A DNA stretch of 64,000 nt from a virus: the IMG/VR virus record IMGVR_UViG_3300042482_000285. One strand, given 5' to 3'. The first letter of the stretch is position 1; each line of letters starts with the position of its first letter. The translations under genes were made by a program, and so were the position numbers. The notes under the pieces are model-generated. The model made no database searches. It had not been told where the DNA came from and saw only the letters and a program-made list of their open reading frames with translations. Shown here one piece after another: positions 9,922-64,000 of this stretch.

Positions 9922-9922
9922 T

Positions 9923-52300: not shown

Positions 52301-55300
52301 TCAGGTGGTTGGTGTAACGTTACATCAGGTTGTCAAGCGGGTGTTTTGAGTGGATGTGGTAATACAGCATCAGGATATAGAGCAGTTGCTGTTGGTGGCG
52401 GTTCAAATATATCTTCAAATAGTTGGTCAACAGTAGGTGGAGGTAGAAATAACACAGCTTCAGGTTGCATGTCCTTTATAGGTGGTGGCTGTGGAAACAC
52501 TGTTTCGGGTGGTTATGCTTCTTCTCTTTTAGGTGGATGTGGTAACACAGCATCGGGAACAAGGTCTACCGTAGGTGGTGGAATGTTGAATACAGTAACA
52601 GGAGCATCAGGAACAATAGCAGGTGGAGAATATAACTGTATTTGTAGTGCAGGCATATTTGGAATCATATCAGGTGGATATTGTAGCATAGTTTCAGGAT
52701 GTTCTGCATCAATATTAGGTGGTAGAGCTAATTTAGCATCAGGAGATTGTTCAACAGTGGGTGGCGGTCAAGCAAACTGTGCAACAGGTGCTTTTTCAGC
52801 AATAGTGGGAGGAGACCAACATGCTGCCACAGCTTCAAGAGCATTTATAGGTGGTGGTTATGACAATACCGTAAGTAACGGTTATGGAGCTATAACAGGA
52901 GGTTATCAAAACAATGCTTCTTACATGGCTTTTGTAGGTGGAGGTAGAGGAAGCACAGCATCAGGAAACTATTCAACAGTAGCAGGGGGACAGTCTAACA
53001 CTGCTTCAGGAACTGTATCAACAGTTGGTGGAGGTGCAGGGCATACAGCTTCAGGATATCGTTCTGTTATCAGTGGTGGACACGCAAATTATGCTACAGC
53101 ATCTTGTTCCGCAGTAGGAGGTGGATATAACAACATTTCTTCAGGAGGATTTGCTTTTGTTGGTGCAGGTACAGGTAACACCTCTTCAAGTTCAGCAACA
53201 TTTATTGGAGGTGGTTATTATAATGTTGCAAACTGTGGATATGCTTCAGTGGCAGGAGGACAACAGAACACAGCAAGTGGAAGATATTCATTTGCAGGTG
53301 GTGGTCTTTGCAACCTTTCCAATGGTGATATGTCAACTATTGGTGGAGGTTCATGGAATAAAATAATTAGTTCAATAGCTACTTGTTGTGCAACAGGAGC
53401 TACTATTGCAGGCGGTGTAGGTAACAATACATGTGGTGGAACATTTAATAACTATGGTGTTCCAACTGTAAACCCAACAGTTGTATCAGCAGGTATTTAT
53501 TCTACAATAGGAGGTGGTTTTCAGAATAGGGCAGTGGGAGAATACTCTGTAGTTTCAGGCGGTATTTTTAATGTTGCAAACACAATATATTCATTTGTTG
53601 GTGGTGGGTATGGACACCTTGCTTCAGGTCAAGCTGCAATGATAGGTGGAGGTCGCTCCCATACAACATCTAATACTTATGCTACAGTACTAAGTGGATA
53701 TAACAGCACTGCAACGGGTTACGCTTCAACAATTTCAGGAGGTTATCAAAACATTGCTTCGGGTACTGATGCTGCAATATCAGGTGGTCGTGCTAATACA
53801 GCAACAGCCTTAGCAGCTTATGTTGGAGGAGGAAGATATAATGATGCAACAAATAATGTAGCCACTATAGCAGGTGGATATGATAACACAGCTTCAGGTG
53901 GATACTCAACTGTAGGTGGTGGATTAGGTAACTGTGCTACAGGATGTATATCTGCTGTAGTGGGTGGTAGACAAAGTTGTGCTACAGGTTGTTATGCTTT
54001 TGCAGGAGGTGGTTACAATAGTAAAGCTACAGCTTTTGCAACTACAACAAGCGGTGGATATGGAAACTTAGCTTCAGGAAATTCATCAACAGTATCAGGT
54101 GGTAGAATAAATACAGCTTCTAATGGTTATGCTACAGTTGCGGGAGGTTATCAAAACACTGCGAGTGGTGCTTATGCTTTTGTAGGTGCAGGTAGTATAA
54201 GTTCAGCAGGTGGTGACTGTGCTGTAATGGTAGGTGGTAAAGCAAATGCCGCAAGTGGTAATATATCATTTCTTGGTGGAGGATGTACAAACACCGCATC
54301 GGGACAAAATTCAGTTGTTGTTGGGGGATGTAATAACACATCAAGTGGTAATACATCAAGTATTTTAGGAGGTAGAGGTAACTCTACGTCTACTGCTTGT
54401 AATAGTATAAGCGGTGGATATGGTAATATAATTACAGCTTCAACAGGTCGTTCTTCAATTGTTGGTGGTAGTTCTAACTGTATAGGAGGTTCAGGTCTTG
54501 CATTTATTGGAGGAGGTAATACAAACACTATATCAGGTAGTTATTATGGAACTATAGCAGGTGGTGTAGGAAACACTACCTCAGCTTGGGCAAACTTTAT
54601 TGGAGCAGGTACATTCAATGTCGTTTCAGGAGGTTGTGGTGCAGTTGCAGGTGGTAATGGGAACACTGCTTCGGGGGGAGCATCTGCTATAGGTGGTGGT
54701 AGAGGTAATACGGCTTCAGGCACTTATTCTAAAGTCGGAGGAGGATGTTCAAATACTGCATCAGCTTCAAGGTCAACAGTAGTAGGTGGATTCCAAAATA
54801 CTGCATCATTTTATGCTTCATTTGTTGGAGGAGGTAGTTTTAACACAGCAAGTTGCTATTGTTCTTTTGTTGGTGCAGGTAATGGTAACGTAGCTTCAGG
54901 TAATGGTTCTGCGGTTGTAGGAGGTCAATCAAATTCTGCATCCAATCTAAATTCATTTGTAGGTGGAGGTAGAGCAAACTGCGCTTATGGAATTTGTTCA
55001 ACAGTTGGAGGAGGTTATAATAATAGGGCAAACCTATACAGCACTGCTGCGGGAGGTCTAAGTAATAATGCTACAGGTACTACTTCAACCGTAAGTGGTG
55101 GTTATAGTAACACAGCAAGTGGTACATACGATGCTTCTATTGGAGGTGGTGCATCGAATAGTGCAAGTGGAAATAAGTCAAGAGTAGGAGGTGGACAATC
55201 TAACGGTGCTACGGGTACAGCTTCTTTTGTAGGAGGTGGTTGTGCTAACACTGCGTCAGGCTATCGTTCAACAGTAAGTGGTGGTTTATCTAATGTAGCT

Positions 55301-56482
55301 TCAGGAGATAGAGCAACGGTAGGTGGTGGTGGTGCAAACTGTGCTACAAATACAGGAGATACTATTTCAGGTGGTATTAATAGTAGAGCAGGTGGTGCTT
55401 ATGGTACAGTTTCAGGTGGTTACAATAATAGTGCTACAGGATATATGGCTGTTATTGGTGGTGGTTGTATAAACTCATCAACATCAAACGCATCAACAGT
55501 TAGTGGAGGTCAGCAAAATTCAGCATCAGGTGCATGTTCCACTGTGGGTGGTGGTATTACAAATAGTGCATCTGGTACAAAATCTACCATTGCAGGTGGT
55601 CAAACAAACACTGCATCAGGATATAACTCATTTATCGGAGGTGGATATGCTAACCAAGCAACACAAACATATAGCTTTGTTGGTGGTGGAGACGAAAATA
55701 TTATTTCATCAGGTGCAAGAGGTGTAATTAGTGGTGGTCAAGGTAATAGAATATGTGGTACATCATCAGGATGTAATACAATTGGTGGTGGATATTTAAA
55801 CTGTATCACTACAGGATTTGTAAATACAATTGGTGGTGGTTATAACAATAGAATAGTAGGTGGCTCTTACCACGTCATAGCAGGTGGTTATAGTAACCAA
55901 ATATCATCAAATACAGAATCAGGTATATTAACAGGTGGTGCTAATACAGTATCAGGTACATACTCAGTAGTAGTTGGTGGTCAAGCAAACACAGCATCAG
56001 GGATATGCTCAGGGGTGTTAGGAGGTAGAAGTAACACAGCTTCAGGAAATCATTCTTCAGTACTTGGTGGATGCGGTAATGTAATATCAGGAAATTGTTC
56101 AGGTGGTGGAGGTGTAGGAATATCAGGAACTTGCTCATCTACTTTTTATTGGAATAACTTTTGTGCAACGTCTTGTATGTGGGCAGTTGCATATTTTGAA
56201 TCTTCTGACGAGCGTTTGAAGGATATTCATTGCACTGTAGGATCTTGTGACTCCATCAATCCTATCTATTTCAAATGGAAAGAAGGTGACGCAAGTGTTA
56301 TTAACATAGGATATTCTGCACAGAACGTGAAGGAAGTGCTTCCTCATACAATCAGAACAGATGAGAAGGGCTACTATAACGTAGACTACCATCAGGTGCA
56401 CATCTATAAAATAACTAAACTTGAGGAACGCATCACACAGCTTGAGGATATAATCAAAAAACTATCATCATGTCTTGGGTAG
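46310..56482 (+). CDS. Giant tail fibre (3390 aa): N-terminal adapter, two collagen-like GXY tracts, Hep_Hag/YadA-like beta-roll repeat array, C-terminal S74 intramolecular chaperone domain
   Basis: Two tracts of (G-T/S-S/T/A)n triplets. About 160 copies of a 14-15-aa repeat S-x-V-G-G-G-x-x-N-T-A-S-G-x-x. C-terminal ...YFESSDERLKDIH... matches the S-D-x-x-x-K Ser-Lys dyad of endosialidase-type intramolecular chaperone (peptidase S74) domains. Confidence 0.8.
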   Translation: MNVLPNILQYGSSGTSGTSGESQTSDYVNNFPVYIDPVVPVEPPPSELSSSQPSFLSKLYGRTLVQETPIITSEPLIYVAAPDPVDPADNQSFMSKLFANANNNTAFTSSPVVCAANPCPITLNATCVFYEGPNLIYTKINTNDNLQTALEKIEAAIADELAGSSGTSGTSGTSGTSGTAGTSGTTGTSGTSGTSATAGTSGTSGSSGTSGTTGTSGTSGTDGSGGTSGTSGTSGTSGTSGTAGTSGTSGTTGTSGTSGTDGSGGTSGTSGTSGTSGTAGTSGTSGTTGTSGTSGTTGTSGTSGTHGTSGTTGTSGTSGTTGTSGTSGTTGTSGTSGTSATSGTSGTSGTDGTGGTSGTSGTSATSGTSGTTGTSGSSGTSGTSGTSGTDGSGGTSGTSGTSGTDGTSATSGTSGSSGTSGTSATSGTTGTSGTSGTDGTGGTSGTSGTSATSGSSGSSGTDGTGGTSGTSGTSATSGTSGTTGTSGSSGTTGTSGTSGTAGTSGTDGSAGTSGTSATSGTSGTSATSGTSGTSGTTGTSGSSGLSGDRFATTSSTTYTLGGVGSSGTITVGTGLAYTVGQSIIVAYDANNHVEAEVTSYNPATGVLSFTVFRLTGSGTYSSWQVNLDGATGGDGSSGSSGTSGTSATAGTSGTTGTSGSSGTSATSGSSGTTGTSGTDGTSGTSGTTGTSGSSGSSGSSGSSGSSGTSATSGTSGTSATDGTGGTSGTSGSSGSSGSAGTSGTAGSPGTSGTSGSSGTAGSSGTTGTSGTSGTTGTSGTSGVSGTSGTSGTNGTGGTSGTSGSSGTSGSSGTAGSSGTSGTSGTAGTNGSPGTSGTSGSSGSSGTSGTTGTSGTSGSSGSSGINVGSSAVIVLGAGACSSVRCGVSNSATGGYTGNLAGTSNTMSGCCYNVIVGGFNSTASGTYYAFIGNGSTNTASGSVSFIGTGGSNIASADYAFIGNGAGNTASGSFATIVGGTVNTASGTCSFIGGGFCNTASGTHDVVVGGLYNRATSSAQSFIGGGCYNYISTGVWNTITGGICNCITAGGYGFIGGGYRNCLINSATESAVVVGGTNTVSASYSGILSGALNSVSGARSSVSGGCQVTASGAFSHVGGGCLNTASGTTAGVLSGRGNAAGGNWSSVSGGYNNSAGGNESHVGGGNANSASGCMSLVGAGFGNTASGLRSGIGSGQCNTASGNYSFVGGGVSNLACGVYSTVTGGIVNEARSTGAVAGGYANTASNRYSAAHGGLSNVAQGISSVIAGGQSNYVCNSTSGCLAYGAVVTGGVGNNTTGGTWSLASCAFTVAPTPCNVGQYSFIGGGFQNRAGGNYNSVVGGFCNSTGTSGYTAIAGGFCNTASANYNFIGAGQNNCIISTGGMSILVGGYLNTVSSTYSFLGGGRSNLVSGACSVIVGGKSNTASGYISAIGGGQSNITSGSFTFVGGGNGVCATSCLATAVGGANNRASGARAFVGGGSANTSSGYISVVVGGDSNTSNDRYGVISGGAVNTASNTYATVSGGLSNTASASRGTVAGGTGNTASGYAAFVVGQNNTASGNRATISGGRNNTSSSTYSTVSGGYRNRATQYATTVSGGYGNYSCVTQGTVGGGICNNLCSSVSASCGAGATIAGGVGNNTTGGTFNPATGQFSVAPTAICNAGQFSFIGGGFSNVATGAYSVLSGGQCNTASGYRSFVGSGYQTVALGCHSVAVGGLFNCASNCAVVVGGCVNTASGAYSFIGGGRTHTASGTWSTISGGYGNLASGQISVVAGGYGSSATGCRAATLGGQSNGASGAWATAGGGISNVASGESSVVSGGDSNTASGIRAAIGGGLANTATQCVSTVAGGDYNDATANRAFIGGGYNNTASSSYTTVSGGYQNTASATRATVAGGQFNFATGSQSIVGGGICNCATTSNSHIGGGLRNCVVGSMEASTISGGYGNIVCGSGCEATIGGGRGNRTVGWWTFVGGGVGNVASAESSISGGALNTASGYRSSVSGGWCNVTSGCQAGVLSGCGNTASGYRAVAVGGGSNISSNSWSTVGGGRNNTASGCMSFIGGGCGNTVSGGYASSLLGGCGNTASGTRSTVGGGMLNTVTGASGTIAGGEYNCICSAGIFGIISGGYCSIVSGCSASILGGRANLASGDCSTVGGGQANCATGAFSAIVGGDQHAATASRAFIGGGYDNTVSNGYGAITGGYQNNASYMAFVGGGRGSTASGNYSTVAGGQSNTASGTVSTVGGGAGHTASGYRSVISGGHANYATASCSAVGGGYNNISSGGFAFVGAGTGNTSSSSATFIGGGYYNVANCGYASVAGGQQNTASGRYSFAGGGLCNLSNGDMSTIGGGSWNKIISSIATCCATGATIAGGVGNNTCGGTFNNYGVPTVNPTVVSAGIYSTIGGGFQNRAVGEYSVVSGGIFNVANTIYSFVGGGYGHLASGQAAMIGGGRSHTTSNTYATVLSGYNSTATGYASTISGGYQNIASGTDAAISGGRANTATALAAYVGGGRYNDATNNVATIAGGYDNTASGGYSTVGGGLGNCATGCISAVVGGRQSCATGCYAFAGGGYNSKATAFATTTSGGYGNLASGNSSTVSGGRINTASNGYATVAGGYQNTASGAYAFVGAGSISSAGGDCAVMVGGKANAASGNISFLGGGCTNTASGQNSVVVGGCNNTSSGNTSSILGGRGNSTSTACNSISGGYGNIITASTGRSSIVGGSSNCIGGSGLAFIGGGNTNTISGSYYGTIAGGVGNTTSAWANFIGAGTFNVVSGGCGAVAGGNGNTASGGASAIGGGRGNTASGTYSKVGGGCSNTASASRSTVVGGFQNTASFYASFVGGGSFNTASCYCSFVGAGNGNVASGNGSAVVGGQSNSASNLNSFVGGGRANCAYGICSTVGGGYNNRANLYSTAAGGLSNNATGTTSTVSGGYSNTASGTYDASIGGGASNSASGNKSRVGGGQSNGATGTASFVGGGCANTASGYRSTVSGGLSNVASGDRATVGGGGANCATNTGDTISGGINSRAGGAYGTVSGGYNNSATGYMAVIGGGCINSSTSNASTVSGGQQNSASGACSTVGGGITNSASGTKSTIAGGQTNTASGYNSFIGGGYANQATQTYSFVGGGDENIISSGARGVISGGQGNRICGTSSGCNTIGGGYLNCITTGFVNTIGGGYNNRIVGGSYHVIAGGYSNQISSNTESGILTGGANTVSGTYSVVVGGQANTASGICSGVLGGRSNTASGNHSSVLGGCGNVISGNCSGGGGVGISGTCSSTFYWNNFCATSCMWAVAYFESSDERLKDIHCTVGSCDSINPIYFKWKEGDASVINIGYSAQNVKEVLPHTIRTDEKGYYNVDYHQVHIYKITKLEERITQLEDIIKKLSSCLG
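46796..47950 (+). repeat. Collagen-like Gly-X-Y tract 1 (~128 triplets), about 9-nt periodic DNA
   Basis: Uninterrupted G-[TSA]-[STAG] triplets (GTSGTSGTAGTSGTTG...). Nucleotide repeat unit ggtac(a/t)tc(t/a)gg(a/t)ac. Confidence 0.85.
48201..48900 (+). repeat. Collagen-like Gly-X-Y tract 2 (~78 triplets)
   Basis: GDGSSGSSGTSGTSATAGTSG...SSGSSG, separated from tract 1 by a roughly 85-aa globular insert. Confidence 0.85.
48901..56110 (+). repeat. Ser-rich 14-15-aa beta-roll (Hep_Hag/YadA-head-like) repeat array, about 2400 aa
   Basis: Periodic GG(G)xxNTASGxxSxV units, many containing Cys (GGGFCNTASG, GGICNCITAGG); no stop for 7.2 kb. Confidence 0.7.
56201..56482 (+). other. C-terminal intramolecular chaperone / auto-proteolysis domain (peptidase S74-like), predicted to be cleaved off
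   Basis: SSDERLKDI at nt 56201-56227. Hydrophobic/charged alternation and a terminal coiled coil (ITKLEERITQLEDIIKKL), as in K1F endosialidase, T5 pb1 and phi29 gp12 C-termini. Confidence 0.6.
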
Positions 56483-57246: not shown

Positions 57247-57292
57247 ATAATTCAAAACTTTTTAATAACTTTGTAAAATAAAACAATAAACA

Positions 57293-57667: not shown

Positions 57668-57674
57668 ACATTAA

Positions 57675-57706
57675 TTTGGAAGTGTAATCTGTAGGTTTTA
57701 CCTTTG
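57675..57706 (+). promoter_or_regulatory. Candidate Bacteroidota-type promoter of the glycosylation operon (TTTG -N20- TACCTTTG)
   Basis: TTTG at 57675-57678 and TACCTTTG at 57699-57706, a perfect match to TTTG-N19-21-TAnnTTTG. It lies 15 nt upstream of the ATG at 57721 and is embedded in an imperfect hairpin GTAGGTTTTA/TAAACCCTAC (57691-57718). Confidence 0.4.
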
Positions 57707-57720
57707 TATAAACCCTACAT

Positions 57721-58602
57721 ATGAACATTATATTCCAAATCAATGGTGGTATAGGAAAGTGCATACTGGCAACATCTGTATGTGAAGCTATCAAGGCGCA
57801 ACATCCTGATAGTCAATTAATTGTAATGAGCGGTTACCCAGAGGTGTTTTTAAACAACCCCTTTGTGGACCGCTCATTTGCATTTGGTCAAGCCCAATAC
57901 TTCTATCAAGACTTTATTGAGAACAAGGAGTTCAAGGTGCTTGCACACGATCCCTACCTAGAAACAGCACATCTATTGCAGAATGAACATTTGTCCAAAA
58001 CCTGGGCAGAGATGTTTAACATCAAGGCTCCTGAGGATGTCACACCAAAGATATACATCACAGAAAGAGAGAAAACATTCTTCTCTAGTAAGTTTAACTC
58101 TGATGCCCCCATCCTCCTTATACAAACTAATGGTGGTGCGCAGGGACAAGAGCTTAGATATTCATGGGCTAGGGATATTCCTACAAACATTGTACAGGCT
58201 GTTATAGAAGAGTTTAAGAACACACATAACATTGTACACATAAGGCGTGAGGATCAAATAGGATATGAATTTACCACTCCTGTTACAGATAACTTCAGAG
58301 CGCTAGCTGTTCTTGTATCTCTCAGTGACAAACGTTTGCTCATGGACAGCTTTGGTCAGCACACAGCTGCTGCTCTAAACAAACCTTCTACAGTGCTTTG
58401 GGTAGCTAACACACCTGTGGTGTTTGGATATGATGTACATGATAACATTCTAGCCAACCCATTTACCAAAAGACCTGAGCTTAAACATTCTTATTTTCAG
58501 AAGTTTGACATCTCTGGAAACCTATTGGAGTTTCCTTACAACAATGAGTCTGAGATGTTTGACGTTGATAAGGTGATTGCATCTATTAAAAACCAAAAAT
58601 AA
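57721..58602 (+). CDS. GT9-family (LPS heptosyltransferase-like) glycosyltransferase
   Basis: N-terminus IIFQINGGIGKCILATSVCEAIKAQHPDSQLIVMS resembles the GT9 opening (ILVIrlsslGDvilttP.l.alk..yP.a.i..l). C-terminal MDSFGQHTAAALNKPSTVLW resembles the GT9 GnDSGpmHLAaAlg.P.V.lfG motif. Confidence 0.6.
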   Translation: MNIIFQINGGIGKCILATSVCEAIKAQHPDSQLIVMSGYPEVFLNNPFVDRSFAFGQAQYFYQDFIENKEFKVLAHDPYLETAHLLQNEHLSKTWAEMFNIKAPEDVTPKIYITEREKTFFSSKFNSDAPILLIQTNGGAQGQELRYSWARDIPTNIVQAVIEEFKNTHNIVHIRREDQIGYEFTTPVTDNFRALAVLVSLSDKRLLMDSFGQHTAAALNKPSTVLWVANTPVVFGYDVHDNILANPFTKRPELKHSYFQKFDISGNLLEFPYNNESEMFDVDKVIASIKNQK

Positions 58603-58603
58603 T

Positions 58604-59422
58604 ATGGAGAAGATATTCTATCAGAGCTCACTTCCAAGAGCTGGGTCTACGTTATTGCAGAACATATTAGCACAGAACCCAGACGTATATGCTACACCTA
58701 CAAGTGGTGTGCTTGAGCTTGTGTTTGCAGCCAGGGCTAATTACACAGACTCTCCTGAGTTTCAAGCACAAGATCCAGAGGTAATGAAAACAGCTTTTCA
58801 AGCTTTCTGTAAACATGGCATGGACGCTTATTACAATGCTATTACAGATAAGAAGTATGTTGTTGATAAATCTCGTGGATGGGGTATACACTATGACTTC
58901 CTTAACTTTGTTCAACCTGATCCAAAGATCATATGCATGGTGAGAGACCTCAGAGATGTATTTGCTTCTATGGAAAACAACTATAGAAAGCATCCTGATA
59001 AGGCTAATGCTATTCTCAACTGGGCACAGATGACTGGAACAACAGTTCCTAAACGTATAGACATCTGGGCACAATCTCAACCTATTGGTCTTGCTATCGA
59101 GAGGTTGGGTGAGCTCTTTAGACTAGGATATGCAGACAAAATACTCTTTGTTAAGTTTGAAGACCTATGTCTCTATCCTGAGACAGAGATGACAAGGATA
59201 TATCAATACCTTGGCATCCCATATTTCAAGCACGACTTTGACAACATTGAGCAAGTGACTAAGGAAGATGATGAAGTGTATGGTCAGTTTGGTGACCACG
59301 TGATTAGAAAGAAACTTGAGCCTGTACAGTCTAGAGCTAAGCAGCTCCTTGGTAAGGATGTAACAGATTGGATTTACACAAACTACAAATGGTTCTTTGA
59401 TCAATTCAGATATAGCAAATGA
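58604..59422 (+). CDS. PAPS-dependent sulfotransferase
   Basis: 5'-PSB motif LPRAGSTLLQNIL (P-K/R-x-G-S/T-T). 3'-PB motif MVRDLRDVFASM (R-D/N-P/L-R-D...S). The ATG at 58604 directly follows the upstream stop, so the track start at 58577 was rejected. Confidence 0.7.
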   Translation: MEKIFYQSSLPRAGSTLLQNILAQNPDVYATPTSGVLELVFAARANYTDSPEFQAQDPEVMKTAFQAFCKHGMDAYYNAITDKKYVVDKSRGWGIHYDFLNFVQPDPKIICMVRDLRDVFASMENNYRKHPDKANAILNWAQMTGTTVPKRIDIWAQSQPIGLAIERLGELFRLGYADKILFVKFEDLCLYPETEMTRIYQYLGIPYFKHDFDNIEQVTKEDDEVYGQFGDHVIRKKLEPVQSRAKQLLGKDVTDWIYTNYKWFFDQFRYSK

Positions 59423-59847
59423 TTATAGTATTATTCGGACAGCCACACAGTGGTAAGACAACATTAGCAAACCAGTTTGCAGGTCATGTTAACATTGATG
59501 GAGACCAACTTAGAAAGATTTTTGAAAACAAAGACTACTCTAGGGAAGGAAGAATCAAGAACCTAAATAGGGCTAGTGACATTGCTCACTATCTCAACAG
59601 TGTAGGTAAGAGTGTAACCCTATCTCTAGTCTATCCTTATAAAGAAGCTAGAGACTACCTGAACAGTTTAACACCTAATGTAAGATGGGTATATTTACAC
59701 TATGATGGTGAGAGAGGAAGAGAAGGATTCCATGTAGGAGATTTTGATAAACCTGGAGATGATGAACAGGTTATGCAACTTAACACCTCTGCTACGTCTG
59801 TAAAAGAATGTTATACCACAATATACAATTGGGCATATGGTGAATAA
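59419..59847 (+). CDS. cysC: Adenylylsulfate (APS) kinase-like P-loop kinase
   Basis: P-loop LFGQPHSGKTTLA followed by NIDGDQLRKIF...REGRIKNLNRASDIAHYLNSVGKSVTLSLVYPYKEAR. This parallels the CysC pattern LDGDNVRHGL...DRKENIRRVGEVAKL..AG.VVL.AFISPhR.eR. Overlaps the upstream stop (ATGA). Confidence 0.65.
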   Translation: MIIVLFGQPHSGKTTLANQFAGHVNIDGDQLRKIFENKDYSREGRIKNLNRASDIAHYLNSVGKSVTLSLVYPYKEARDYLNSLTPNVRWVYLHYDGERGREGFHVGDFDKPGDDEQVMQLNTSATSVKECYTTIYNWAYGE

Positions 59848-60202
59848 CGTTCATGAGTGTCCTGAGTGTAAGATAGCCAAGGGTTGGGGACATGAGCTTA
59901 TTATTCATAACTCTGAAAAGTATTGTGGTAAGCTACTAGTATTCAAGGCTGGATGTAAGTTCTCTATGCATTATCACCTACTCAAACAGGAGACATGGTA
60001 TGTAAACAAAGGAACATTCATCTACCGATGGATAGATACTAATCAGGGGACAGAGCTTTCCACTCGTTTGGCTGTTGGAGATGTTGTTACACAATACCCA
60101 GGACAACCACATCAGCTTGAGGCTCTAAAGGATGGGGAGATATTTGAGGTGAGCACACAACACTTTGACTCAGACAGCTATAGAATATGGAAGGGAGATT
60201 AA
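59837..60202 (+). CDS. Cupin-fold small protein (121 aa); candidate sugar-phosphate isomerase or epimerase
   Basis: Two-motif cupin signature: G-x5-H-x-H (WGHELIIH...MHYH) and G...Q.P..H.LE. 11-nt overlap with the upstream gene. Confidence 0.45.
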   Translation: MVNNVHECPECKIAKGWGHELIIHNSEKYCGKLLVFKAGCKFSMHYHLLKQETWYVNKGTFIYRWIDTNQGTELSTRLAVGDVVTQYPGQPHQLEALKDGEIFEVSTQHFDSDSYRIWKGD

Positions 60203-60489
60203 CAATATATGTAGACATTGATGGCACAATATGCCACACAGATGGTAATAAATACAGTGAATGTGTTCCCATCCATGAGAACATAGCTAAGATAAATAAA
60301 CTGTATGATGAGGGACATGAGATAGTATATTACACAGCTAGAGGTCAAAGGTCAGATGTTGATTATACAAAGCTGACAACCAAACAGCTGTACGATTGGA
60401 ACTGTAAATACTCAAAGGTGGTGATGAATCATAAACCTGCCTACGACCTAATGATATGTGATAAAACAAAAAGAATAGAAGAGATATGA
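60187..60489 (+). CDS. Minimal HAD-like phosphatase (100 aa); candidate heptose-1,7-bisphosphate phosphatase (GmhB role)
   Basis: HAD motif I IYVDIDGTI (DxDGT). Later YYTARGQ (motif II Thr), HKPAYDLMICDKT (Lys and Asp of motifs III/IV). Unusually short. Overlaps the upstream gene by 16 nt. Confidence 0.4.
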   Translation: MEGRLTIYVDIDGTICHTDGNKYSECVPIHENIAKINKLYDEGHEIVYYTARGQRSDVDYTKLTTKQLYDWNCKYSKVVMNHKPAYDLMICDKTKRIEEI

Positions 60490-60887
60490 GAATATGGGTG
60501 AATGGAGCTTTTGACATCCTGCATATAGGACACATTAAGCTTCTTAAACATGCAGCAGCTATGGGCTACCTTAGAGTGGGGATAGATACAGACAAGAGAA
60601 TAAAAGAGCTAAAGGGTCCCAACAGACCCTTTAATTGTTTTAGCACAAGAAAGGAAATGTTAGAATCTCTACGCTTTGTAGACGAGGTGGTGGGGTTTGG
60701 TGGTGAGCAGGAGCTCATAGATGAGATTAAACTTTATCAACCAGATGTGATGGTGATTGGATCTGACTACAGGAATAAGAGGATTGTTGGATCGGAATTT
60801 ATAAACAAAATTGTTTACTTTGACAGGGTGGAGAATATGTCCACCACATCAATACTAGAATATGAAAAAGATAGTGGTAATAGGTGA
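60486..60887 (+). CDS. hldC: D-glycero-beta-D-manno-heptose 1-phosphate adenylyltransferase (HldE domain II / HldC-like cytidylyltransferase fold)
   Basis: WVNGAFDILHIGHIKLLKHAAAMG...LRVGIDTDKRIKELKGPNRP...EVVGFGGEQELIDEIKLYQPDVMVIGSDY matches the RfaE-II consensus (vftNGcFDilHaGHv.yL..Ar.lGd.LiVgvNsD.Sv.rlKG..RPv...VD.Vv.F.e.TP..Li....PdvlVKGgDY). ATGA overlap with the upstream gene. Confidence 0.8.
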   Translation: MRIWVNGAFDILHIGHIKLLKHAAAMGYLRVGIDTDKRIKELKGPNRPFNCFSTRKEMLESLRFVDEVVGFGGEQELIDEIKLYQPDVMVIGSDYRNKRIVGSEFINKIVYFDRVENMSTTSILEYEKDSGNR

Positions 60888-61599
60888 GCTCTGCCATGAT
60901 GTGTTTGTATATGGGGAATGCAAAAGGCTGAGCCCAGAAGCACCCGTTCCTGTATTCAATCCTATACATAGTGTAGAGAATCTAGGAATGGCTGGGAATG
61001 TTGTGGCTAACATCAACACTATTGATTCTAACATAGGAATATCTTTCTATCACAGCCTAGAGAAGATAACCAAGACTAGGTATGTAGATAAGAAAACCAA
61101 CCATCTATTCCTTAGGGTGGATGATGAACCACGTGTGAACAGAATACATATATCAGAGACACTTATTTCTGAGATAAAGGAAGCAGATGCTGTAGTGGTT
61201 AGTGATTACAACAAAGGGTTTCTGTCTGAAGATGACCTGTATACAATATCAAAACTTGCAAGATTTGCAATAGTTGACACTAAGAAGAGGATGAATCCCA
61301 TCCACCTATCACATTTCAACTTCATCAAAATAAATGAACATGAGGCTAATCAGGGAGTTGCTGATGAACTTAAAGAAAAGACTATTGTAACACTTGGTCC
61401 AAAAGGAGCAATGTATATGGATACATTATACCCATCTCCACACCCTAAGGAAACTATAGATGTGTCAGGAGCTGGTGATACATTCCTAGCAGCATTTGTC
61501 ACTAAGTATTTGGAGACAGAAGATGTTAATATTTCTATTACCTTTGCAAATAAGATGAGCGCTATTGTTGTATCAAAAAGAGGCGTAGCTACACCATGA
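60862..61599 (+). CDS. hldA: PfkB-family sugar kinase, HldE domain I-like (D-glycero-beta-D-manno-heptose 7-phosphate kinase)
   Basis: The N-terminus KKIVVIGELCHDVFVYGECKRLSPEAPVPVF parallels HldE (ilVvGDvmLDrY..G...RiSPEAPVPVv). PfkB anion-hole/catalytic motif DVSGAGDTFLAAF. 26-nt overlap with hldC. Confidence 0.7.
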   Translation: MKKIVVIGELCHDVFVYGECKRLSPEAPVPVFNPIHSVENLGMAGNVVANINTIDSNIGISFYHSLEKITKTRYVDKKTNHLFLRVDDEPRVNRIHISETLISEIKEADAVVVSDYNKGFLSEDDLYTISKLARFAIVDTKKRMNPIHLSHFNFIKINEHEANQGVADELKEKTIVTLGPKGAMYMDTLYPSPHPKETIDVSGAGDTFLAAFVTKYLETEDVNISITFANKMSAIVVSKRGVATP

Positions 61600-62456
61600 A
61601 AGTATTGATTACAGGAACTAAAGGATTTATAGGAGGCAATCTCTGGAAGCATTTTGATGACCCGTTGGTGATTAATGAAAACTTTTTTCTTGAACCAGAA
61701 TGGCCTGGGCTTTTACATAAAGCATTGAACAACCATTCACCAGATGTTGTGTTCCACGTAGGCGCTTGTTCCAACACTCTAGAGACAGATGTTAATTACA
61801 TCATGAATCTAAACTTCCAATGTACAAAGCTACTGATGGATTGGTGCAAACGTGGTGGTAAACCTATGATATATTCATCCTCTGCAGCATCCTATGGAAC
61901 AAATGGACAATACCCATCCAACCTATATGGCTGGAGTAAGTATGTAGCTGAGCAATATGTAATTAGCAACGGTGGTGTAGCACTTAGATACTTCAATGTA
62001 TATGGACCAGGAGAAGAGCACAAGGGTAACATGGCTTCTATGGTCTACCAGATGTTTAAAGCAGGAGAAGCTAAGCTATTTCCTGGTGAGCCTCAACGTG
62101 ATTTCATATATGTGGATGATGTTGTACTTGCCAACCTACATGCATTGGCACACTATGATGTGCTATCAGGAAAGAAATATGATGTAGGACTTGGAGAAGC
62201 ACACACCTTTGAGTATATTGCAAATGTATTAGAGATTCCATACACATACCATGACTCATCAGCTATACCAGAAGGATATCAATTCTACACATGTAGCAAT
62301 CCTAGAAACTGGATGCCTGGTTGGGCACCAGAATATTCAATAAAAACAACACTACAATTATGCAAAACGTATTGGCAAAAGCTGCTCACAAATCAGGACA
62401 ATGGGCAATGTTCATCGGAAGATGGCAACCGTGGCACGAAGGACACAGATGGTTAA
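61596..62456 (+). CDS. hldD: ADP-L-glycero-D-manno-heptose 6-epimerase
   Basis: Rossmann [22 protein letters not shown]...[21 protein letters not shown] (YxxxK) and [22 protein letters not shown]...[16 protein letters not shown] align near-identically in pattern with E. coli HldD (HEGACSST...[43 protein letters not shown]...LFEGSENFKRDFVYVGDV). Confidence 0.85.
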   Translation: [286 protein letters not shown]

Positions 62457-62746
62457 TTGACCAAGCATTTAACGAGGATAAGAAAGTGCTCCTCTGTATA
62501 AGAGATGTACCTGTGGATGAGAAGAATCCTTGGTCTGCTATTGAGGTGATGATGAACCTCACTAACGAATTAATAGACTTAATTGAAGAAGGAAGACTTA
62601 AAATTATTATTATACCTGATATTGAATCTATCAATATTGGTAGGGGTATTGGTTATGATGTTATAGAACATGTACCGCCTCAAGATATACATGATATATC
62701 TGCTACAAAGATTCGTGAACAAATGAAAGCTGAGGGTAAGTTATGA
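62360..62746 (+). CDS. NadM/NMNAT-like (HxGH) nucleotidyltransferase, about 128 aa
   Basis: AMFIGRWQPWHEGHRWLIDQAF...KVLLCI matches the archaeal-type NMNAT / cytidylyltransferase signature GRFQPFHKGH followed by EIIIGIGSA. The track ORF begins at 62321 inside hldD. Internal ATGs at 62360 or 62408 are more plausible starts. Confidence 0.45.
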   Translation: MQNVLAKAAHKSGQWAMFIGRWQPWHEGHRWLIDQAFNEDKKVLLCIRDVPVDEKNPWSAIEVMMNLTNELIDLIEEGRLKIIIIPDIESINIGRGIGYDVIEHVPPQDIHDISATKIREQMKAEGKL

Positions 62747-62967
62747 TGGTAGAAAGGAAACGACATATAGCTAAGACTATTAGTTATCGTCTCATCAGTA
62801 CACTCATTGGTGTGCTCACTATGTTTATTGTAACAGGATCTATGAAAGCAGGAGCTGCATTTGGTGTAGCTGAGCTGTTGTGGAAGCCTGTACAATACTA
62901 CATCCACGAACGTATTTGGTATAAGTGGATTAGATATGGCTTAAAAGGGCAAAAACAACCTGACTAG
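62743..62967 (+). CDS. DUF2061-like small membrane protein (74 aa)
   Basis: RKRHIAKTISYRLISTLIGVLTMFIVTGSMKAGAAFGVAELLWKPVQYYIHERIWYKW fits the DUF2061 pattern as I recall it (K.ISWR..GTL.TF.I...vTGS...a.......e...K.vlYYlHER.W). This family is often adjacent to or fused with APS kinase. The 3' end overlaps the convergent minus-strand gene by 38 nt. Confidence 0.4.
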   Translation: MMVERKRHIAKTISYRLISTLIGVLTMFIVTGSMKAGAAFGVAELLWKPVQYYIHERIWYKWIRYGLKGQKQPD

Positions 62968-63982
62968 CATCTATCTTCTGGTGGCATTCAAACTGTCTGT
63001 CTGTTCCCTTGTGTTCAGGACACCAGTCCCAATCTCCTGGATCAAACTTATATTCAGCTTTGTTCCAACATCCGTGGCATACATTCTTGTTGTCAATCCT
63101 AATGCATTGAAACTCATGGTCTGCTTCTGTGAAGTTGGAGATCATCACCACCTTCTTGTCAAGAGCCCAGGCTAACCAGCTAAGTCCACTAGACAGTCCT
63201 ATGAATATCTTACTGTGATGGATAATGTTCATGGTGTTCTCTATGGATGTATCCTCTATCTGCTCACAGTTGTCAAAAGGATTCTTCTCCTTAGATACAT
63301 TAATCACCTTGTATCCTTTCTCATGCAGGAAGTTTATCACTAGCTGCCATCCCTCTTTGGTCCAGAACTTACAACCAGTTGTAGAATTGGTGGCTATTGT
63401 AACATATTTACCATATAAATTGTTACCAGGAGTGAATGCAATTCTTGGTTTAAGTTCTTGAAACTCAAGACCTAAGATGTTGGTAGCTGCCTCTTGGAGC
63501 TTTACAGTGTTACACAAAGCTGGTTCCTTGTCAGGATTGTAAAACCAACCTATGTTATACATACCAAATATACCATCAGCCTTCTGACCAGGTTCAATAA
63601 ACTCAATCTCTGGGTAGACATCTTTGAACAAGAAGTTCTTAAACGTACTCACTATTACATGGCAGTTGTGCTTCTTCTTAAACTCAAGAACATATGGCAT
63701 CCATGCTATACTATCTCCTAGAGACTTGCTGTCAAATGCTATGTACACACGCTTACCTGTGTAGTCTAGGGTGTATTCGTAATAGGGCTCATCATCTTTC
63801 CATATCTTAATGGTCCACTTGGTAAACCACCTCCTGTTGAGCTTAATCCAATTCTGCACACCTATTGTGTTCCTATAGTGACACACACCTTCCTCATCAT
63901 GATATTCCACCCTGAACTTGCTCTTAGACCTTCCCTTGATTTCAAGAAACGGTTCTAGAATAAAGTTGTGATCAATTGTCAC
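62930..63982 (-). CDS. TibC/AAH-like autotransporter-adhesin-type protein O-heptosyltransferase (BAHT family), probably N-terminally incomplete at the window edge
   Basis: SLGDSIAWMPYVLEFKKKHNCHV parallels TibC TLGDLLGWFPYAERFQSLHKCRL. IGLSSGLSWLAWALDKKVVMISNFTEADHEF parallels IGLPSGLSWLAWATRIPVVLISGFSLPNSEF. CHGCWNKAEYKFDPGDWDWCPEHKGTDRQFECHQ parallels the TibC iron-finger CYGCWDD...FLWCPRHKNTDRQFEC (TibC sequence recalled from memory). It is the only credible minus-strand gene. The first in-window codon is GTG and the frame stays open to nt 64000. Confidence 0.8.
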   Translation of the reverse strand: MTIDHNFILEPFLEIKGRSKSKFRVEYHDEEGVCHYRNTIGVQNWIKLNRRWFTKWTIKIWKDDEPYYEYTLDYTGKRVYIAFDSKSLGDSIAWMPYVLEFKKKHNCHVIVSTFKNFLFKDVYPEIEFIEPGQKADGIFGMYNIGWFYNPDKEPALCNTVKLQEAATNILGLEFQELKPRIAFTPGNNLYGKYVTIATNSTTGCKFWTKEGWQLVINFLHEKGYKVINVSKEKNPFDNCEQIEDTSIENTMNIIHHSKIFIGLSSGLSWLAWALDKKVVMISNFTEADHEFQCIRIDNKNVCHGCWNKAEYKFDPGDWDWCPEHKGTDRQFECHQKIDASQVVFALLSHI

Positions 63983-64000
63983 ATGTTCGTTAGATTGTAC

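What the first reader, a model, noticed from the sequence alone, without database searches (positions are those of the whole stretch)
58604..62967. PAPS sulfation module (sulfotransferase + APS kinase + DUF2061) embedded in the heptose operon
A sulfotransferase with canonical 5'-PSB (PRAGSTLL) and 3'-PB (RDLRDVFAS) motifs is followed, with ATGA coupling, by a compact APS kinase (P-loop plus DGDxxR and downstream CysC-like blocks). A DUF2061 membrane protein, a family known to associate with APS kinases, lies a few genes downstream in the same operon. The phage could convert host APS to PAPS and sulfate a glycan or protein. Sulfated heptose or sulfated fibre glycans would be highly unusual for a phage and would create a polyanionic, mucin-like virion surface.
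Basis: partly seen in the sequence, partly recalled or inferred. Interest (0 to 1): 0.72.

Follow-up and report, generated by a model that had tools for sequence, protein, structure and literature searches.

The report
Phage operon for making and using PAPS

Summary

- In all 77 evaluable related phage loci the kinase lies immediately upstream of the NT. The heptose cassette between them here is a minority insertion.
- Relatives of the NT are fused to APS kinase domains in both orders (35 of 46 long representatives).
- The pair sits next to four different Pfam sulfotransferase families in phages, Marinimicrobia, Acidobacteriota and a Methanosarcinales MAG, there with a CysQ-like phosphatase.
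- A canonical ATP sulfurylase is adjacent in only one locus.

I infer that the NT is a compact ATP sulfurylase and that the phage makes PAPS from sulfate. This is not shown biochemically.

A TibC-like protein heptosyltransferase (E 5e-49) and a Ser-rich 3,390-aa fibre next door make sulfated, heptosylated fibres plausible but unproven.

The parts
57721..58602 (+). Conserved 293-aa protein of unknown function that travels with the sulfotransferase
   Evidence: No Pfam, NCBIfam, PDB or PADLOC match; only phrog_8954, of unknown function. A homologue is present in 44 of 80 related phage loci, always near the sulfotransferase or kinase. Its stop lies 1 nt before the sulfotransferase ATG.
58604..59422 (+). 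PAPS-dependent sulfotransferase (272 aa), acceptor unknown
   Evidence: PF13469 76.8 bits, PF00685 52 bits. phrog_27463, E 1.9e-42. The PRAGSTLL and VRDLRDVFAS segments align to TPST1. NoeE model 35.9 bits, far below its cut-off. Cyanophage 'sulfotransferase' genes are 27-29% identical.
59419..59847 (+). Compact APS kinase (142 aa) with the lid segment deleted
59837..60202 (+). Cupin (121 aa), first gene of the inserted heptose cassette. Possibly replaces the GmhA isomerase.
   Evidence: Cupin_2 25.5 bits and weak mannose-6-P isomerase and lyxose isomerase matches. phrog_7851, E 1e-36. Found only in loci that also carry the heptose genes. The isomerase role is inferred, not tested.
60187..60489 (+). 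Minimal HAD phosphatase (100 aa): heptose bisphosphate phosphatase, or possibly a PAP 3'-phosphatase
   Evidence: HAD_PNKP 20.7 bits; capsule phosphatase TIGR01689 24.9 bits. It is 34% identical to a 112-aa HAD that in other phage loci sits between kinase and NT, or between NT and DUF2061.
60486..60887 (+). Heptose 1-phosphate adenylyltransferase (HldE domain II-like)
   Evidence: TIGR02199 101.5 bits (below the equivalog cut-off); PF01467 49.5 bits.
60862..61599 (+). Heptose 7-phosphate kinase (HldE domain I-like, PfkB family)
   Evidence: TIGR02198 120.6 bits; PF00294 62.5 bits.
61596..62456 (+). ADP-glycero-manno-heptose 6-epimerase-like SDR
   Evidence: TIGR02197 168 bits; PF01370 102 bits.
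62360..62746 (+). 128-aa HxGH/ISxTxxR nucleotidyltransferase (NT), the obligate partner of the kinase and a proposed compact ATP sulfurylase
   Evidence: Homologues are 128 aa, which sets the start at ATG 62360. PF01467 23.2 bits. NMNAT models score 38 and 31 bits against cut-offs of 127 and 181.

The kinase is directly upstream in 64 of 80 phage loci, with the heptose cassette between them in 5 and a HAD ORF between them in 8. The other 3 loci are cut at a contig edge.

62743..62967 (+). DUF2061 small membrane protein (74 aa), a frequent accessory of the kinase-NT pair
   Evidence: PF09834 53.8 bits. Present in 65 of 80 loci, and within 1 kb downstream of the NT in 60. Also lies directly upstream of a fused kinase-NT gene in L093-95. 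Found in a Mesorhizobium nod locus with nodH, nodP and nodQ.
62930..63982 (-). TibC-like protein O-heptosyltransferase (BAHT family), convergent with the operon
   Evidence: PDB 4rap (TibC) E 5.1e-49, 300 residues aligned, including the CxxC...C...C segment. PF01075 34.1 bits. In relatives it is the C-terminal part of 721- to 1139-aa multidomain glycosyltransferases.
46310..56482 (+). 3,390-aa fibre protein, candidate acceptor (context; inferred)
   Evidence: Ser+Thr 30%, Gly 23%. Six collagen-like G-x-y runs. 122 GGxxN and 81 NxA[ST] motifs with a modal spacing of 15 residues. It lies two small ORFs upstream of the module on the same strand.

Best explanation
The region is a phage-encoded sulfation module whose core is four genes: sulfotransferase, compact APS kinase, a small HxGH nucleotidyltransferase (NT) and DUF2061. 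In this phage a five-gene ADP-heptose cassette has been inserted between the kinase and the NT.

Proposed mechanism:
1. The NT adenylylates sulfate (ATP + sulfate gives APS + PPi).
2. The kinase phosphorylates the 3'-OH of APS to give PAPS.
3. The sulfotransferase transfers the sulfo group to an acceptor.

The acceptor is most plausibly a glycan built on a phage fibre protein. The operon also makes ADP-heptose. It is flanked on one side by a TibC-like protein O-heptosyltransferase and on the other, two small ORFs upstream, by a giant Ser-rich repeat fibre gene.

What is shown: gene content and order, family membership of the sulfotransferase and kinase, the near-invariant kinase-NT linkage and their fusions, and the association with several sulfotransferase families.

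What is inferred: the ATP sulfurylase activity of the NT (about 0.55-0.6 on its own), the role of DUF2061 (unknown; perhaps membrane anchoring), and the acceptor (fibre glycan about 0.35-0.4).

The claim that kinase plus sulfotransferase form a PAPS-dependent sulfation module stands at about 0.85.
For: Sulfotransferase and kinase identity:
- Pfam scores above the curated cut-offs.
- The kinase family profile finds APS kinases as its 11 best PDB matches.
- Catalytic and APS-site residues align with canonical CysC.

Linkage of the NT to the kinase:
- The kinase is immediately upstream of the NT in all 77 evaluable IMG/VR loci. The same holds in Marinimicrobia chromosomes.
- 35 of 46 long NT-family representatives are fused to APS kinase domains, 25 as kinase-NT and 10 as NT-kinase. 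Many have full-length CysC domains of 140-230 bits.
- Xylella phage Salvo gp32 is such a fusion.

Association of the pair with sulfotransferases of different families:
- Sulfotransfer_1/_3 in the window, Sulfotransfer_1 in L074 and Sulfotransfer_2 directly after a fusion in a phage, L097.
- Sulfotransfer_5 within 10 kb in 16 Marinimicrobia-type loci.
- Glycosyltransferase-sulfotransferase fusions in an Acidobacteriota MAG.
- A Methanosarcinales operon reads NT-APS kinase, CysQ-like phosphatase (154 bits), then a weak sub-threshold sulfotransferase-like domain (PF00685 18.3 bits, cut-off 22) fused to a glycosyltransferase.

The sulfurylase slot is otherwise empty. CysD/CysN occur next to the pair in one locus only, and no Sat signature (RNPxHxxH) occurs in 1.92 Mb of loci.

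Fibre link: TibC homologue at E 5e-49, a complete heptose cassette, and a Ser-rich 15-residue-repeat fibre two small ORFs upstream.
Against: - No biochemical data exist for any component.
- The NT's nearest sequence and fold relatives are NMN adenylyltransferases. It does not reach the Pfam ATP-sulfurylase threshold and has no QxRN sulfate motif.
- In the Acidobacteriota locus L096 a canonical cysD-cysN pair sits beside the NT-kinase fusion, so there the NT is at best redundant.
- In 9 jumbo-phage loci, and in Salvo-like phages, no recognisable sulfotransferase lies within about 6 kb of the pair. The small PRxGST ORFs found beside the pair in other loci could not be confirmed as sulfotransferases.
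- The compact kinase lacks the lid of canonical APS kinases and fails the NCBIfam equivalog cut-offs. Gluconate kinase is nearly as close in fold.
- The NT model is poor (pLDDT below 50) exactly over its family-specific region, residues 92-115.
- Nothing shows that the fibre is the acceptor. The sulfotransferase's best solved relatives are tyrosylprotein sulfotransferases.
Confidence: 0.6

Rival explanations
1. The kinase merely converts host-made APS to PAPS for the sulfotransferase. The small nucleotidyltransferase does something else, for example a regulatory or scaffolding partner of the kinase, or adenylylation of another small phosphate compound.
For: In L096 a canonical CysDN sulfurylase sits next to the NT-kinase fusion, so APS supply there does not need the NT. 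The NT does not reach the PF01747 threshold and resembles NMNAT most. Many hosts make APS themselves (general knowledge).
Against: - The obligate adjacency (77 of 77) and the two independent fusion orders argue for consecutive steps of one pathway.
- CysDN or Sat is absent beside the pair in all other loci.
- In the Methanosarcinales operon every other PAPS-cycle step is encoded except the sulfurylase.
- The catalytic motifs of the NT are invariant, which argues against a pure scaffold.
Confidence: 0.2
2. The acceptor is not the virion. The module, together with the heptose genes and glycosyltransferases, remodels a host envelope glycan (LPS core or capsule) during infection, for example to block superinfection.
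For: - GT9 enzymes and ADP-heptose are classically LPS-core functions (general knowledge; PF01075 hit).
- In cellular genomes the kinase-NT pair lies in polysaccharide loci with Wzm/Wzt-type ABC exporters and glycosyltransferases.
- Related phage loci add FkbM methyltransferases and carbamoyltransferases typical of polysaccharide decoration.
Against: - The heptosyltransferase is specifically TibC-like (E 5e-49), against 0.58 for LPS heptosyltransferase WaaC. TibC is a protein-modifying enzyme.
- The operon sits at the end of the structural module, two small ORFs downstream of a Ser-rich repeat fibre gene on the same strand.
Confidence: 0.3
3. The kinase is an auxiliary metabolic gene (phage 'cysC') that boosts host assimilatory sulfate reduction. 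This is how phage cysC genes are currently read in the literature.
For: Freshwater phage cysC genes are reported, are highly transcribed, and are interpreted in this way (PMC10914622). Some fused kinase-NT genes lie among unrelated metabolic genes (Fe-S assembly, adenylosuccinate synthetase-like) without a confirmed sulfotransferase.
Against: - No PAPS reductase (cysH) or sulfite reductase is present in this operon or in the related loci inspected.
- The kinase overlaps the sulfotransferase stop codon here.
- It is linked to sulfotransferases of several families elsewhere.
Confidence: 0.05
4. Kinase and nucleotidyltransferase are unrelated to sulfate. Either they form a NadR-like NAD salvage pair (nicotinamide riboside kinase + NMNAT), or the kinase is a gluconate/shikimate-type small-molecule kinase and the sulfotransferase uses host PAPS.
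Against: - NT relatives are fused to full-length CysC domains, and never to Nudix or RNK domains in the 20 multidomain representatives scanned with Pfam.
- The NT fails the NMNAT family cut-offs by a wide margin and lacks about 62 residues of NMNAT.
- No other NAD genes are nearby.
Confidence: 0.05

Closest known systems
Bifunctional PAPS synthases (animal PAPSS1/2; Aquifex Sat-CysC; bacterial CysNC/NodQ with CysD/NodP)
   Different: The presumed sulfurylase is a 110- to 130-aa HxGH nucleotidyltransferase of NMNAT ancestry. It is neither the roughly 400-aa PUA + Sat enzyme nor the GTPase-coupled CysDN. It does not reach PF01747. The kinase is shortened to 142 aa with the lid deleted. In this window the two genes are separated by five heptose genes.
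Rhizobial Nod-factor sulfation genes nodP, nodQ and nodH (and NoeE)
   Same: A dedicated PAPS supply is encoded beside a carbohydrate sulfotransferase in a glycan-decoration locus. A DUF2061 gene lies in the Mesorhizobium nod locus with nodH, nodP and nodQ. NoeE is the only NCBIfam model the phage sulfotransferase touches. Related phage loci also carry NodU-like carbamoyltransferases and methyltransferases.
   Different: NodPQ is a CysDN/CysC-type enzyme. The phage sulfotransferase scores far below the NoeE cut-off (35.9 bits against 500). The setting is a phage structural module, not a symbiosis island.
Archaeal-type NMN adenylyltransferase (NadM / MJ0541 / MTH150)
   Same: It shares the GRxQPxHxGH and ISxTxxR motifs and is the best sequence and fold match to the NT.
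   Different: The NT lacks about 24 residues between the PDIE strand and the ISxT motif, and about 38 C-terminal residues. It has its own invariant residues R48 and G94-R95-x-V-G98-Y99. It scores 38 and 31 bits against cut-offs of 127 and 181. It is never seen with Nudix or NAD genes, and is seen constantly with APS kinase.
TibC/AAH bacterial autotransporter heptosyltransferases with their ADP-heptose supply
   Same: The convergent 350-aa gene aligns to TibC over 300 residues (E 5e-49), including the Cys-rich segment. The operon encodes the ADP-heptose pathway. A Ser-rich repeat protein is encoded nearby.
   Different: It is encoded by a phage. The presumed substrate is a fibre, not an autotransporter. 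To my knowledge no sulfation is known in the TibC/AIDA systems. No paper in the searched library links TibC-type enzymes to phages.
Phage 'cysC' auxiliary metabolic genes and orphan phage sulfotransferases
   Same: Phage-encoded APS kinases are reported in freshwater phages (PMC10914622). Sulfotransferases are annotated in cyanophages and OM43 phages.
   Different: Those reports treat cysC as an assimilatory sulfate reduction gene, and state that the role of phage sulfotransferases 'remains unclear'. The coupling of sulfotransferase, kinase, NT and DUF2061 is not described in the searched literature.

Membership tests
APS kinase (CysC, PF01583, EC 2.7.1.25) | Pfam gathering score reached | tested here: met
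   36.9 bits against a cut-off of 21.1, but only profile positions 4-105 of 152 are covered.
APS kinase (CysC, PF01583, EC 2.7.1.25) | NCBIfam equivalog or subfamily cut-offs (TIGR00455, PRK05541) | tested here: not met
   33.2 bits against 138.7, and 47.4 bits against 127. The protein is a divergent, shortened member.
APS kinase (CysC, PF01583, EC 2.7.1.25) | Walker A P-loop, DGDxxR, and the aromatic-S-x-x-x-R-x-x-N block that lines the APS site in solved APS kinases | tested here: met
   GQPHSGKT, IDGDQLR and DYSREGRIKNLNR align to the corresponding CysC segments. G12, K13, D27, G28, D29, R32, R45 and P73 are invariant with canonical CysC domains. The assignment of these residues to APS binding rests on published APS kinase structures (from memory), not on a test here.
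APS kinase (CysC, PF01583, EC 2.7.1.25) | Mobile lid segment (KGLYKKARAGEIxxFTGID) | tested here: not met
   About 20 residues of this segment are deleted in the window kinase and in the Marinimicrobia and jumbo-phage homologues.
APS kinase (CysC, PF01583, EC 2.7.1.25) | Fold closest to solved APS kinases | tested here: met
APS kinase (CysC, PF01583, EC 2.7.1.25) | Phosphorylates APS to PAPS | not testable with these tools
   Needs an enzyme assay or cysC complementation.
PAPS-dependent sulfotransferase (PF13469 / PF00685) | Pfam gathering scores, 5'-PSB loop and 3'-PB Arg/Ser motif | tested here: met
   76.8 and 52 bits. PRAGSTLL and VRDLRDVFAS align to the TPST1 motifs.
PAPS-dependent sulfotransferase (PF13469 / PF00685) | Known acceptor class (carbohydrate or tyrosine) | tested here: inconclusive
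   Best PDB hits are TPST1/2 at E 3.5e-5. The only NCBIfam hit is NoeE, at 35.9 bits against 500.
ATP sulfurylase, Sat type (PF01747) | Pfam gathering score | tested here: not met
   No PF01747 hit for the window NT at E up to 0.1. Fused homologues give 15.8-21.6 bits against a cut-off of 24.3. The NT is therefore not filed as a Sat family member, only as a possible functional analogue.
ATP sulfurylase, Sat type (PF01747) | HxxH nucleotidyltransferase motif and shared fold | tested here: met
ATP sulfurylase, Sat type (PF01747) | QxRNPxHxxH sulfate-binding signature | tested here: not met
   The NT has GRWQPWHEGH. No RNPxHxxH occurs in any locus.
ATP sulfurylase (function) | Forms APS from ATP and sulfate | not testable with these tools
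   Supported only by gene linkage, fusions and the absence of another sulfurylase.
NMN adenylyltransferase, archaeal/NadM type (TIGR01527, PRK01153) | Family cut-offs and a full-length match | tested here: not met
   31.1 bits against 181.2, and 38.4 bits against 127. Only residues 17-90 and 113-126 align; about 24 internal and about 38 C-terminal residues are absent.
NMN adenylyltransferase, archaeal/NadM type (TIGR01527, PRK01153) | Association with NAD salvage partners (Nudix, NadV, RNK) | tested here: not met
   None in the window or related loci. Of the 46 long representatives, 35 are fused to an APS kinase domain. Of the 20 long representatives scanned with Pfam, the non-kinase ones carry a methyltransferase, DUF6717 or no second domain.
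DUF2061 (PF09834) | Pfam gathering score | tested here: met
   53.8 bits against 23.1.
Bacterial autotransporter heptosyltransferase (TibC/AAH) | Full-length similarity to TibC, including the Cys-rich segment | tested here: met
   E 5.1e-49, residues 43-342 aligned to TibC 61-379. CHGCW...WCPEHKGTDRQFEC aligns to CYGCW...WCPRHKNTDRQFEC.
Bacterial autotransporter heptosyltransferase (TibC/AAH) | Heptosylates serine residues of a protein substrate | not testable with these tools
   The candidate substrate is the fibre at 46310-56482. Inference only.

The most novel reading that the evidence does not exclude
The 110- to 130-aa HxGH nucleotidyltransferase family is a third, so far unrecognised class of ATP sulfurylase. 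Together with a lid-less APS kinase it would form the smallest known PAPS synthase.

The family is widespread. More than 6,000 protein clusters at 90% identity match the NT, and the related fused kinase-NT proteins match over 2,600. They occur in freshwater and marine phages and also in Marinimicrobia (SAR406), Acidobacteriota, Omnitrophota and Methanosarcinales.

In this phage it would supply PAPS to sulfate heptose residues that a TibC-like enzyme places on a giant Ser-rich fibre, giving a polyanionic virion appendage. Phage 'cysC' genes, now read as sulfur-assimilation AMGs, would then largely be glycoconjugate-sulfation genes.
Probability: 0.45. Interest if true: 0.85.

Novelty: new variant of a known kind. 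Interest (0 to 1): 0.75.

Why it matters
- **A new ATP sulfurylase type.** Sulfate activation is textbook biochemistry with two known ATP sulfurylase types. A third, miniature type derived from NMNAT-like transferases would change how sulfate activation is annotated in thousands of viral and microbial genomes. It would also provide a very compact two-protein PAPS generator for biotechnology.
- **Reading of phage genes.** It would recast abundant, highly transcribed phage 'cysC' genes from sulfur-assimilation helpers into suppliers for macromolecule sulfation. It would also give the first functional context for phage sulfotransferases, whose role the literature calls unclear.
- **Virion chemistry.** If the acceptor is the fibre, this would to my knowledge be the first phage with a self-encoded pathway for heptosylated and sulfated virion proteins, with consequences for adsorption and host range.
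- **Testability.** Each step can be tested directly with small, easily expressed proteins.

Tried and rejected
- **Nucleotide search.** Searching 56400-64000 against GenBank phages found nothing. No isolated phage carries the split kinase / NT arrangement; only fused versions (Salvo-like phages) and NadM genes turned up.
- **A retracted inference.** I first read a tblastn hit of the epimerase C-terminus in heptose-free loci L006-9 as a deletion scar. I withdrew this. The hit is the conserved 5' part of the NT gene read in another frame, because the epimerase ORF overlaps the NT by 97 nt.
- **Iterative HMM search.** Starting from the window sulfotransferase, it converged on its own family only (58 ORFs) and could not detect other sulfotransferase families.
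- **Small PRxGST ORFs.** Small ORFs with an N-terminal PRxGST motif, plus an R...S motif in one of the two groups, lie beside the kinase-NT pair in L024/25/38/48/73/78/90/93. They gave no Pfam hit and only spurious PDB hits, so they are not counted as sulfotransferases.
- **Promoter and terminator scans.** No better than shuffled sequence.
- **Other libraries.** PADLOC gave nothing meaningful. The BFVD viral fold library gave only weak NMNAT and cytidylyltransferase hits. The afdb50 library was unavailable.
- **The 293-aa ORF.** No hit in Pfam, NCBIfam or PDB, as a single sequence or as a profile, and no BLASTP similarity to the TibC-like gene. My impression that its N-terminus looks GT9-like is untested and was dropped.
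- **NMN-binding residues.** A literature search for the NMN-binding residues of archaeal NMNAT found nothing usable. The claim that the NT lacks the NMN pocket therefore rests only on the deletions seen in the alignment.

Full report
**Observation**

The window is the structural arm of a large tailed phage. Its portal is 25-29% identical to those of crAss-like, Flavobacterium and Leptolyngbya phages, it has a major head protein, and it has several giant fibre ORFs. It has no nucleotide-level relative among GenBank phages.

From 57721 to 62967 ten + strand genes abut or overlap. In order they are:
- a 293-aa ORF of unknown function;
- a 272-aa sulfotransferase, 58604-59422;
- a 142-aa kinase, 59419-59847, with an ATGA overlap;
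- a cupin, a 100-aa HAD phosphatase, an HldE-domain-II-like adenylyltransferase, an HldE-domain-I-like PfkB kinase and an ADP-heptose 6-epimerase-like gene;
- a small nucleotidyltransferase;
- a 74-aa DUF2061 protein, 62743-62967.

Pfam places the sulfotransferase (PF13469 76.8 bits, PF00685 52 bits), the kinase (PF01583 36.9 bits against a cut-off of 21.1) and DUF2061 (53.8 bits) above their curated thresholds.

**Is the kinase an APS kinase?**

- Sequence. The single sequence, and more strongly a profile of 39 family members, find APS kinases as the 11 best PDB matches. The best is 2yvu at E 4e-12, followed by Aquifex Sat/CysC, Methanothermococcus, Arabidopsis and human PAPSS. No gluconate or shikimate kinase appears below E 0.1.
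- Residues. Aligned with canonical CysC domains, the P-loop, DGD, R32, R45, P73 and R99 are invariant, and the block DYSREGRIKNLNR matches GFSxEDRxENIRR.
- Departures. The protein lacks about 20 residues of the lid (KGLYKK...FTGID) and the N-terminal extension. It fails the NCBIfam equivalog cut-offs.

I therefore file it as a divergent, shortened member of the APS kinase family. Its activity is inferred.

PHROG family 10255 ('kinase', 230 positions) matched the kinase ORF over profile positions 2-85. It also matched the small nucleotidyltransferase ORF over positions 134-229. So in other phages the two are one protein. Xylella phage Salvo gp32 (248 aa) is such a fusion: PF01583 37.4 bits plus PF01467 21.4 bits. 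The fused family comprises more than 2,600 clusters.

The window's nucleotidyltransferase (NT) has 128-aa homologues, which sets its start at ATG 62360. It carries GRWQPWHEGH and ISATKIR, the two signatures of the HxGH nucleotidyltransferase superfamily. ATP sulfurylase also belongs to that superfamily (general knowledge).

**Linkage of kinase and NT**

I fetched 80 IMG/VR loci through the NT and located homologues of every window gene.

| Arrangement of kinase and NT | Loci (of 80) |
|---|---|
| Kinase directly upstream of NT (gap under 150 nt) | 64 |
| Separated by the heptose cassette, as in the window | 5 |
| Separated by one HAD ORF | 8 |
| Not evaluable (NT at a contig edge) | 3 |

This gives 77 of 77 evaluable loci with the kinase upstream of the NT. 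The metagenomic loci L006-9 show the contiguous form sulfotransferase - 293-aa homologue - kinase - NT - DUF2061 with no heptose genes. The heptose cassette is therefore an insertion into a sulfation module, not the other way round.

DUF2061 follows in 65 of 80 loci. The window-type sulfotransferase is present in 48 of 80, or 31 of the 51 loci with at least 3 kb of flank on both sides.

**Fusions**

An exhaustive search of 1.84 billion representative proteins found 432 NT-family clusters at E of 1e-10 or better. Among the best 150, 46 are at least 185 aa long.
- 35 of these carry an APS kinase domain: 25 as kinase-NT and 10 as NT-kinase.
- Many have full-length canonical CysC domains of 140-230 bits.
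- Of the 20 long representatives scanned with Pfam, none carries a Nudix or ribosylnicotinamide kinase domain. The non-kinase ones among them carry a methyltransferase, DUF6717 or no second domain.

Two independent fusion orders are classic evidence for consecutive steps in one pathway.

**Context beyond this phage**

- The pair lies in Marinimicrobia (SAR406) chromosomes. The NT is 57-64% identical and the compact kinase is directly upstream. A Sulfotransfer_5 gene (165 bits) lies within 10 kb in 16 loci.
- In a Pyrinomonadaceae chromosome a canonical CysC (137 bits) overlaps the NT, beside a Sulfotransfer_3-like gene (26.3 bits, just under the cut-off).
- In a Methanosarcinales MAG the operon reads NT-CysC fusion (180 bits), CysQ-like inositol-monophosphatase-family protein (154 bits), then a weak sulfotransferase-like domain (PF00685 18.3 bits, below its cut-off of 22) fused to a glycosyltransferase. 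Every step of a PAPS cycle is encoded except a recognisable sulfurylase.
- In another phage a CysC-NT fusion is followed directly by a Sulfotransfer_2 gene. Phage loci L074-77 carry a Sulfotransfer_1 gene instead of the window type.
- Across 1.92 Mb of loci that hold the pair, CysD/CysN occur once (L096) and the Sat signature RNPxHxxH never occurs.

**What the NT is and is not**

It fails the NMNAT family cut-offs by a wide margin. It aligns to NMNAT only over residues 17-90 and 113-126, so about 24 internal and about 38 C-terminal residues are missing.

Over 95 diverse members the invariant residues are G20, R21, H26, G28, H29, S114, T116 and R119, which are the catalytic core. The family-specific invariants are R48, P57, D87, G94, R95, G98 and Y99. 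The family-specific loop is exactly where the AlphaFold model is unreliable (pLDDT below 50 over residues 92-115), so no pocket can be read from it.

The NT does not reach the Pfam ATP-sulfurylase threshold. Fused homologues give 15.8-21.6 bits against 24.3. I therefore do not file it as a member of the Sat family. I propose that it works like one, on the basis of linkage, fusion, the empty sulfurylase slot and the retained adenylyl-transfer machinery.

The main counter-evidence has two parts. In L096 a cysD-cysN pair sits beside the NT-CysC fusion. And a set of jumbo-phage and Salvo-like contexts show no confirmed sulfotransferase nearby.

**Acceptor**

The convergent gene 62930-63982 is a close homologue of TibC, the heptosyltransferase that O-glycosylates serines of the TibA autotransporter. 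The match is E 5e-49 over 300 aligned residues with the Cys-rich segment conserved. LPS heptosyltransferase WaaC scores only E 0.58.

The operon encodes the ADP-heptose pathway. Two small ORFs upstream lies a 3,390-aa fibre with 30% Ser+Thr, collagen-like G-x-y runs and about 120 copies of a 15-residue Gly/Ser/Asn repeat. A heptosylated fibre whose glycan is then sulfated is a coherent reading, but nothing here tests it.

The sulfotransferase's nearest solved relatives are tyrosylprotein sulfotransferases (weak). The cellular homologues of the module sit in exported-polysaccharide loci. A host envelope glycan or a protein tyrosine therefore remain open as acceptors.

**Literature**

- Phage cysC genes have been reported in freshwater phages and read as assimilatory sulfate reduction genes, without mention of sulfotransferases (PMC10914622).
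- A paper on OM43 phages states that the function of phage sulfotransferases 'remains unclear' (PMC10580990).
- DUF2061 is noted, without comment, inside a Mesorhizobium nod locus with nodH, nodP and nodQ (bioRxiv 10.1101/2022.04.26.489235).
- Searches combining ATP sulfurylase or APS kinase with cytidylyltransferase-like or NMNAT terms, phage with PAPS or virion sulfation, and TibC with phage found nothing relevant.
- The library does not cover subscription journals, so prior description cannot be excluded.

**Verdict**

The finding is real, and richer than reported. The sulfotransferase plus APS kinase assignment is well supported (about 0.85). The most interesting result is the obligate kinase partner, which I propose is a compact ATP sulfurylase (about 0.55-0.6). 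Sulfated heptosylated fibres are plausible (about 0.35-0.4).

I rate it a new variant of a known kind: PAPS synthesis plus sulfotransfer, with a non-canonical first enzyme and a viral, fibre-adjacent setting.

Noticed in passing
window 62930-63982 (-): A 350-aa homologue of TibC, the autotransporter protein O-heptosyltransferase (PDB 4rap, E 5e-49, Cys-rich segment conserved). It is convergent with the operon and overlaps the DUF2061 3' end by 38 nt. In related loci it is the C-terminal part of 721- to 1139-aa multidomain glycosyltransferase/methyltransferase proteins.
   Followed up: partly
window 46310-56482 (+): A 3,390-aa fibre ORF with 30% Ser+Thr and 23% Gly. It has six long collagen-like G-x-y (GTS) runs and about 120 copies of a 15-residue GGxxNxASG-type repeat. 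GC content and GC skew are raised over this gene. It is a possible heptosylation substrate.
   Followed up: partly
window 59837-60202 (+): A 121-aa cupin occupies the position where the SIS-type isomerase GmhA would be expected in the heptose cassette, and occurs only in loci that carry the heptose genes. Its PHROG family is labelled 'cysteine dioxygenase', which looks like a carried-over name.
   Followed up: no
window 60187-60489 (+); L070-L078 about 9666-10004; L012, L016, L017, L021, L022, L027, L028 just after the NT: A minimal PNKP-like HAD phosphatase (100-112 aa) recurs inside the module. It lies between kinase and NT, or between NT and DUF2061, even in loci without heptose genes. It is 34% identical to the window's HAD. 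It could be a PAP 3'-phosphatase (a CysQ analogue) rather than, or as well as, the heptose bisphosphate phosphatase.
   Followed up: partly
window 58604-63982 compared with L006-L011: The operon is mosaic. The NT, DUF2061 and TibC-like genes are 89-95% identical to L006-L010, while the kinase is 67% and the sulfotransferase 49% identical. In L011 the sulfotransferase is 95% but the kinase only 65% identical. This points to recombination breakpoints inside the operon. The NT is the most conserved gene of the set, with a median of 78%.
   Followed up: partly
window 62321-62456: The epimerase ORF runs 97 nt into the NT gene in another frame. The NT has three possible starts: TTG 62321, ATG 62360 and ATG 62384. 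The homologue length of 128 aa favours 62360.
   Followed up: partly
L001 4989-5735 (Xylella phage Salvo gp32); L090-92; L093-95: Fused kinase-NT genes in cultured Xylella, Stenotrophomonas and Xanthomonas phages are annotated only as 'kinase' or 'hypothetical'. In L090-92 the fusion overlaps an adenylosuccinate-synthetase-like gene and lies near Fe-S assembly, IMPDH-like and radical SAM genes. In L093-95 DUF2061 lies directly upstream, and a 188-aa gene with a faint QueC/PP-loop hit lies directly downstream.
   Followed up: partly
L024/25/38/39/48/73/78/90/93 (e.g. L073 10399-10998, L090 8952-9572): Small ORFs (184-242 aa) with an N-terminal PRxGST-type motif lie beside the kinase-NT pair in loci that lack a recognisable sulfotransferase. 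One group also has a conserved R...S pair. They have no Pfam or PDB match and may be a minimal, undescribed sulfotransferase family.
   Followed up: partly
L099-L115, L124 (Marinimicrobia and related genome contigs): The compact kinase-NT pair is chromosomal in SAR406/Marinimicrobia. It sits in polysaccharide loci next to a conserved pair of genes, a class IV aminotransferase and a Sulfotransfer_5 protein. The phage and Marinimicrobia NTs are 57-64% identical, but the kinases only 39-45%.
   Followed up: partly
L079-L087 (contigs of 109-321 kb): In jumbo-phage contigs the kinase-NT pair is followed by an N6/N4 DNA methyltransferase. There is no DUF2061 and no sulfotransferase within about 6 kb. 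The role of the pair there is open.
   Followed up: no
window 57721-58602 (+): A 293-aa ORF with about 60 invariant residues across homologues that are 36-71% identical. It has no match in Pfam, NCBIfam, PDB or PADLOC, and it always accompanies the sulfotransferase or kinase.
   Followed up: partly
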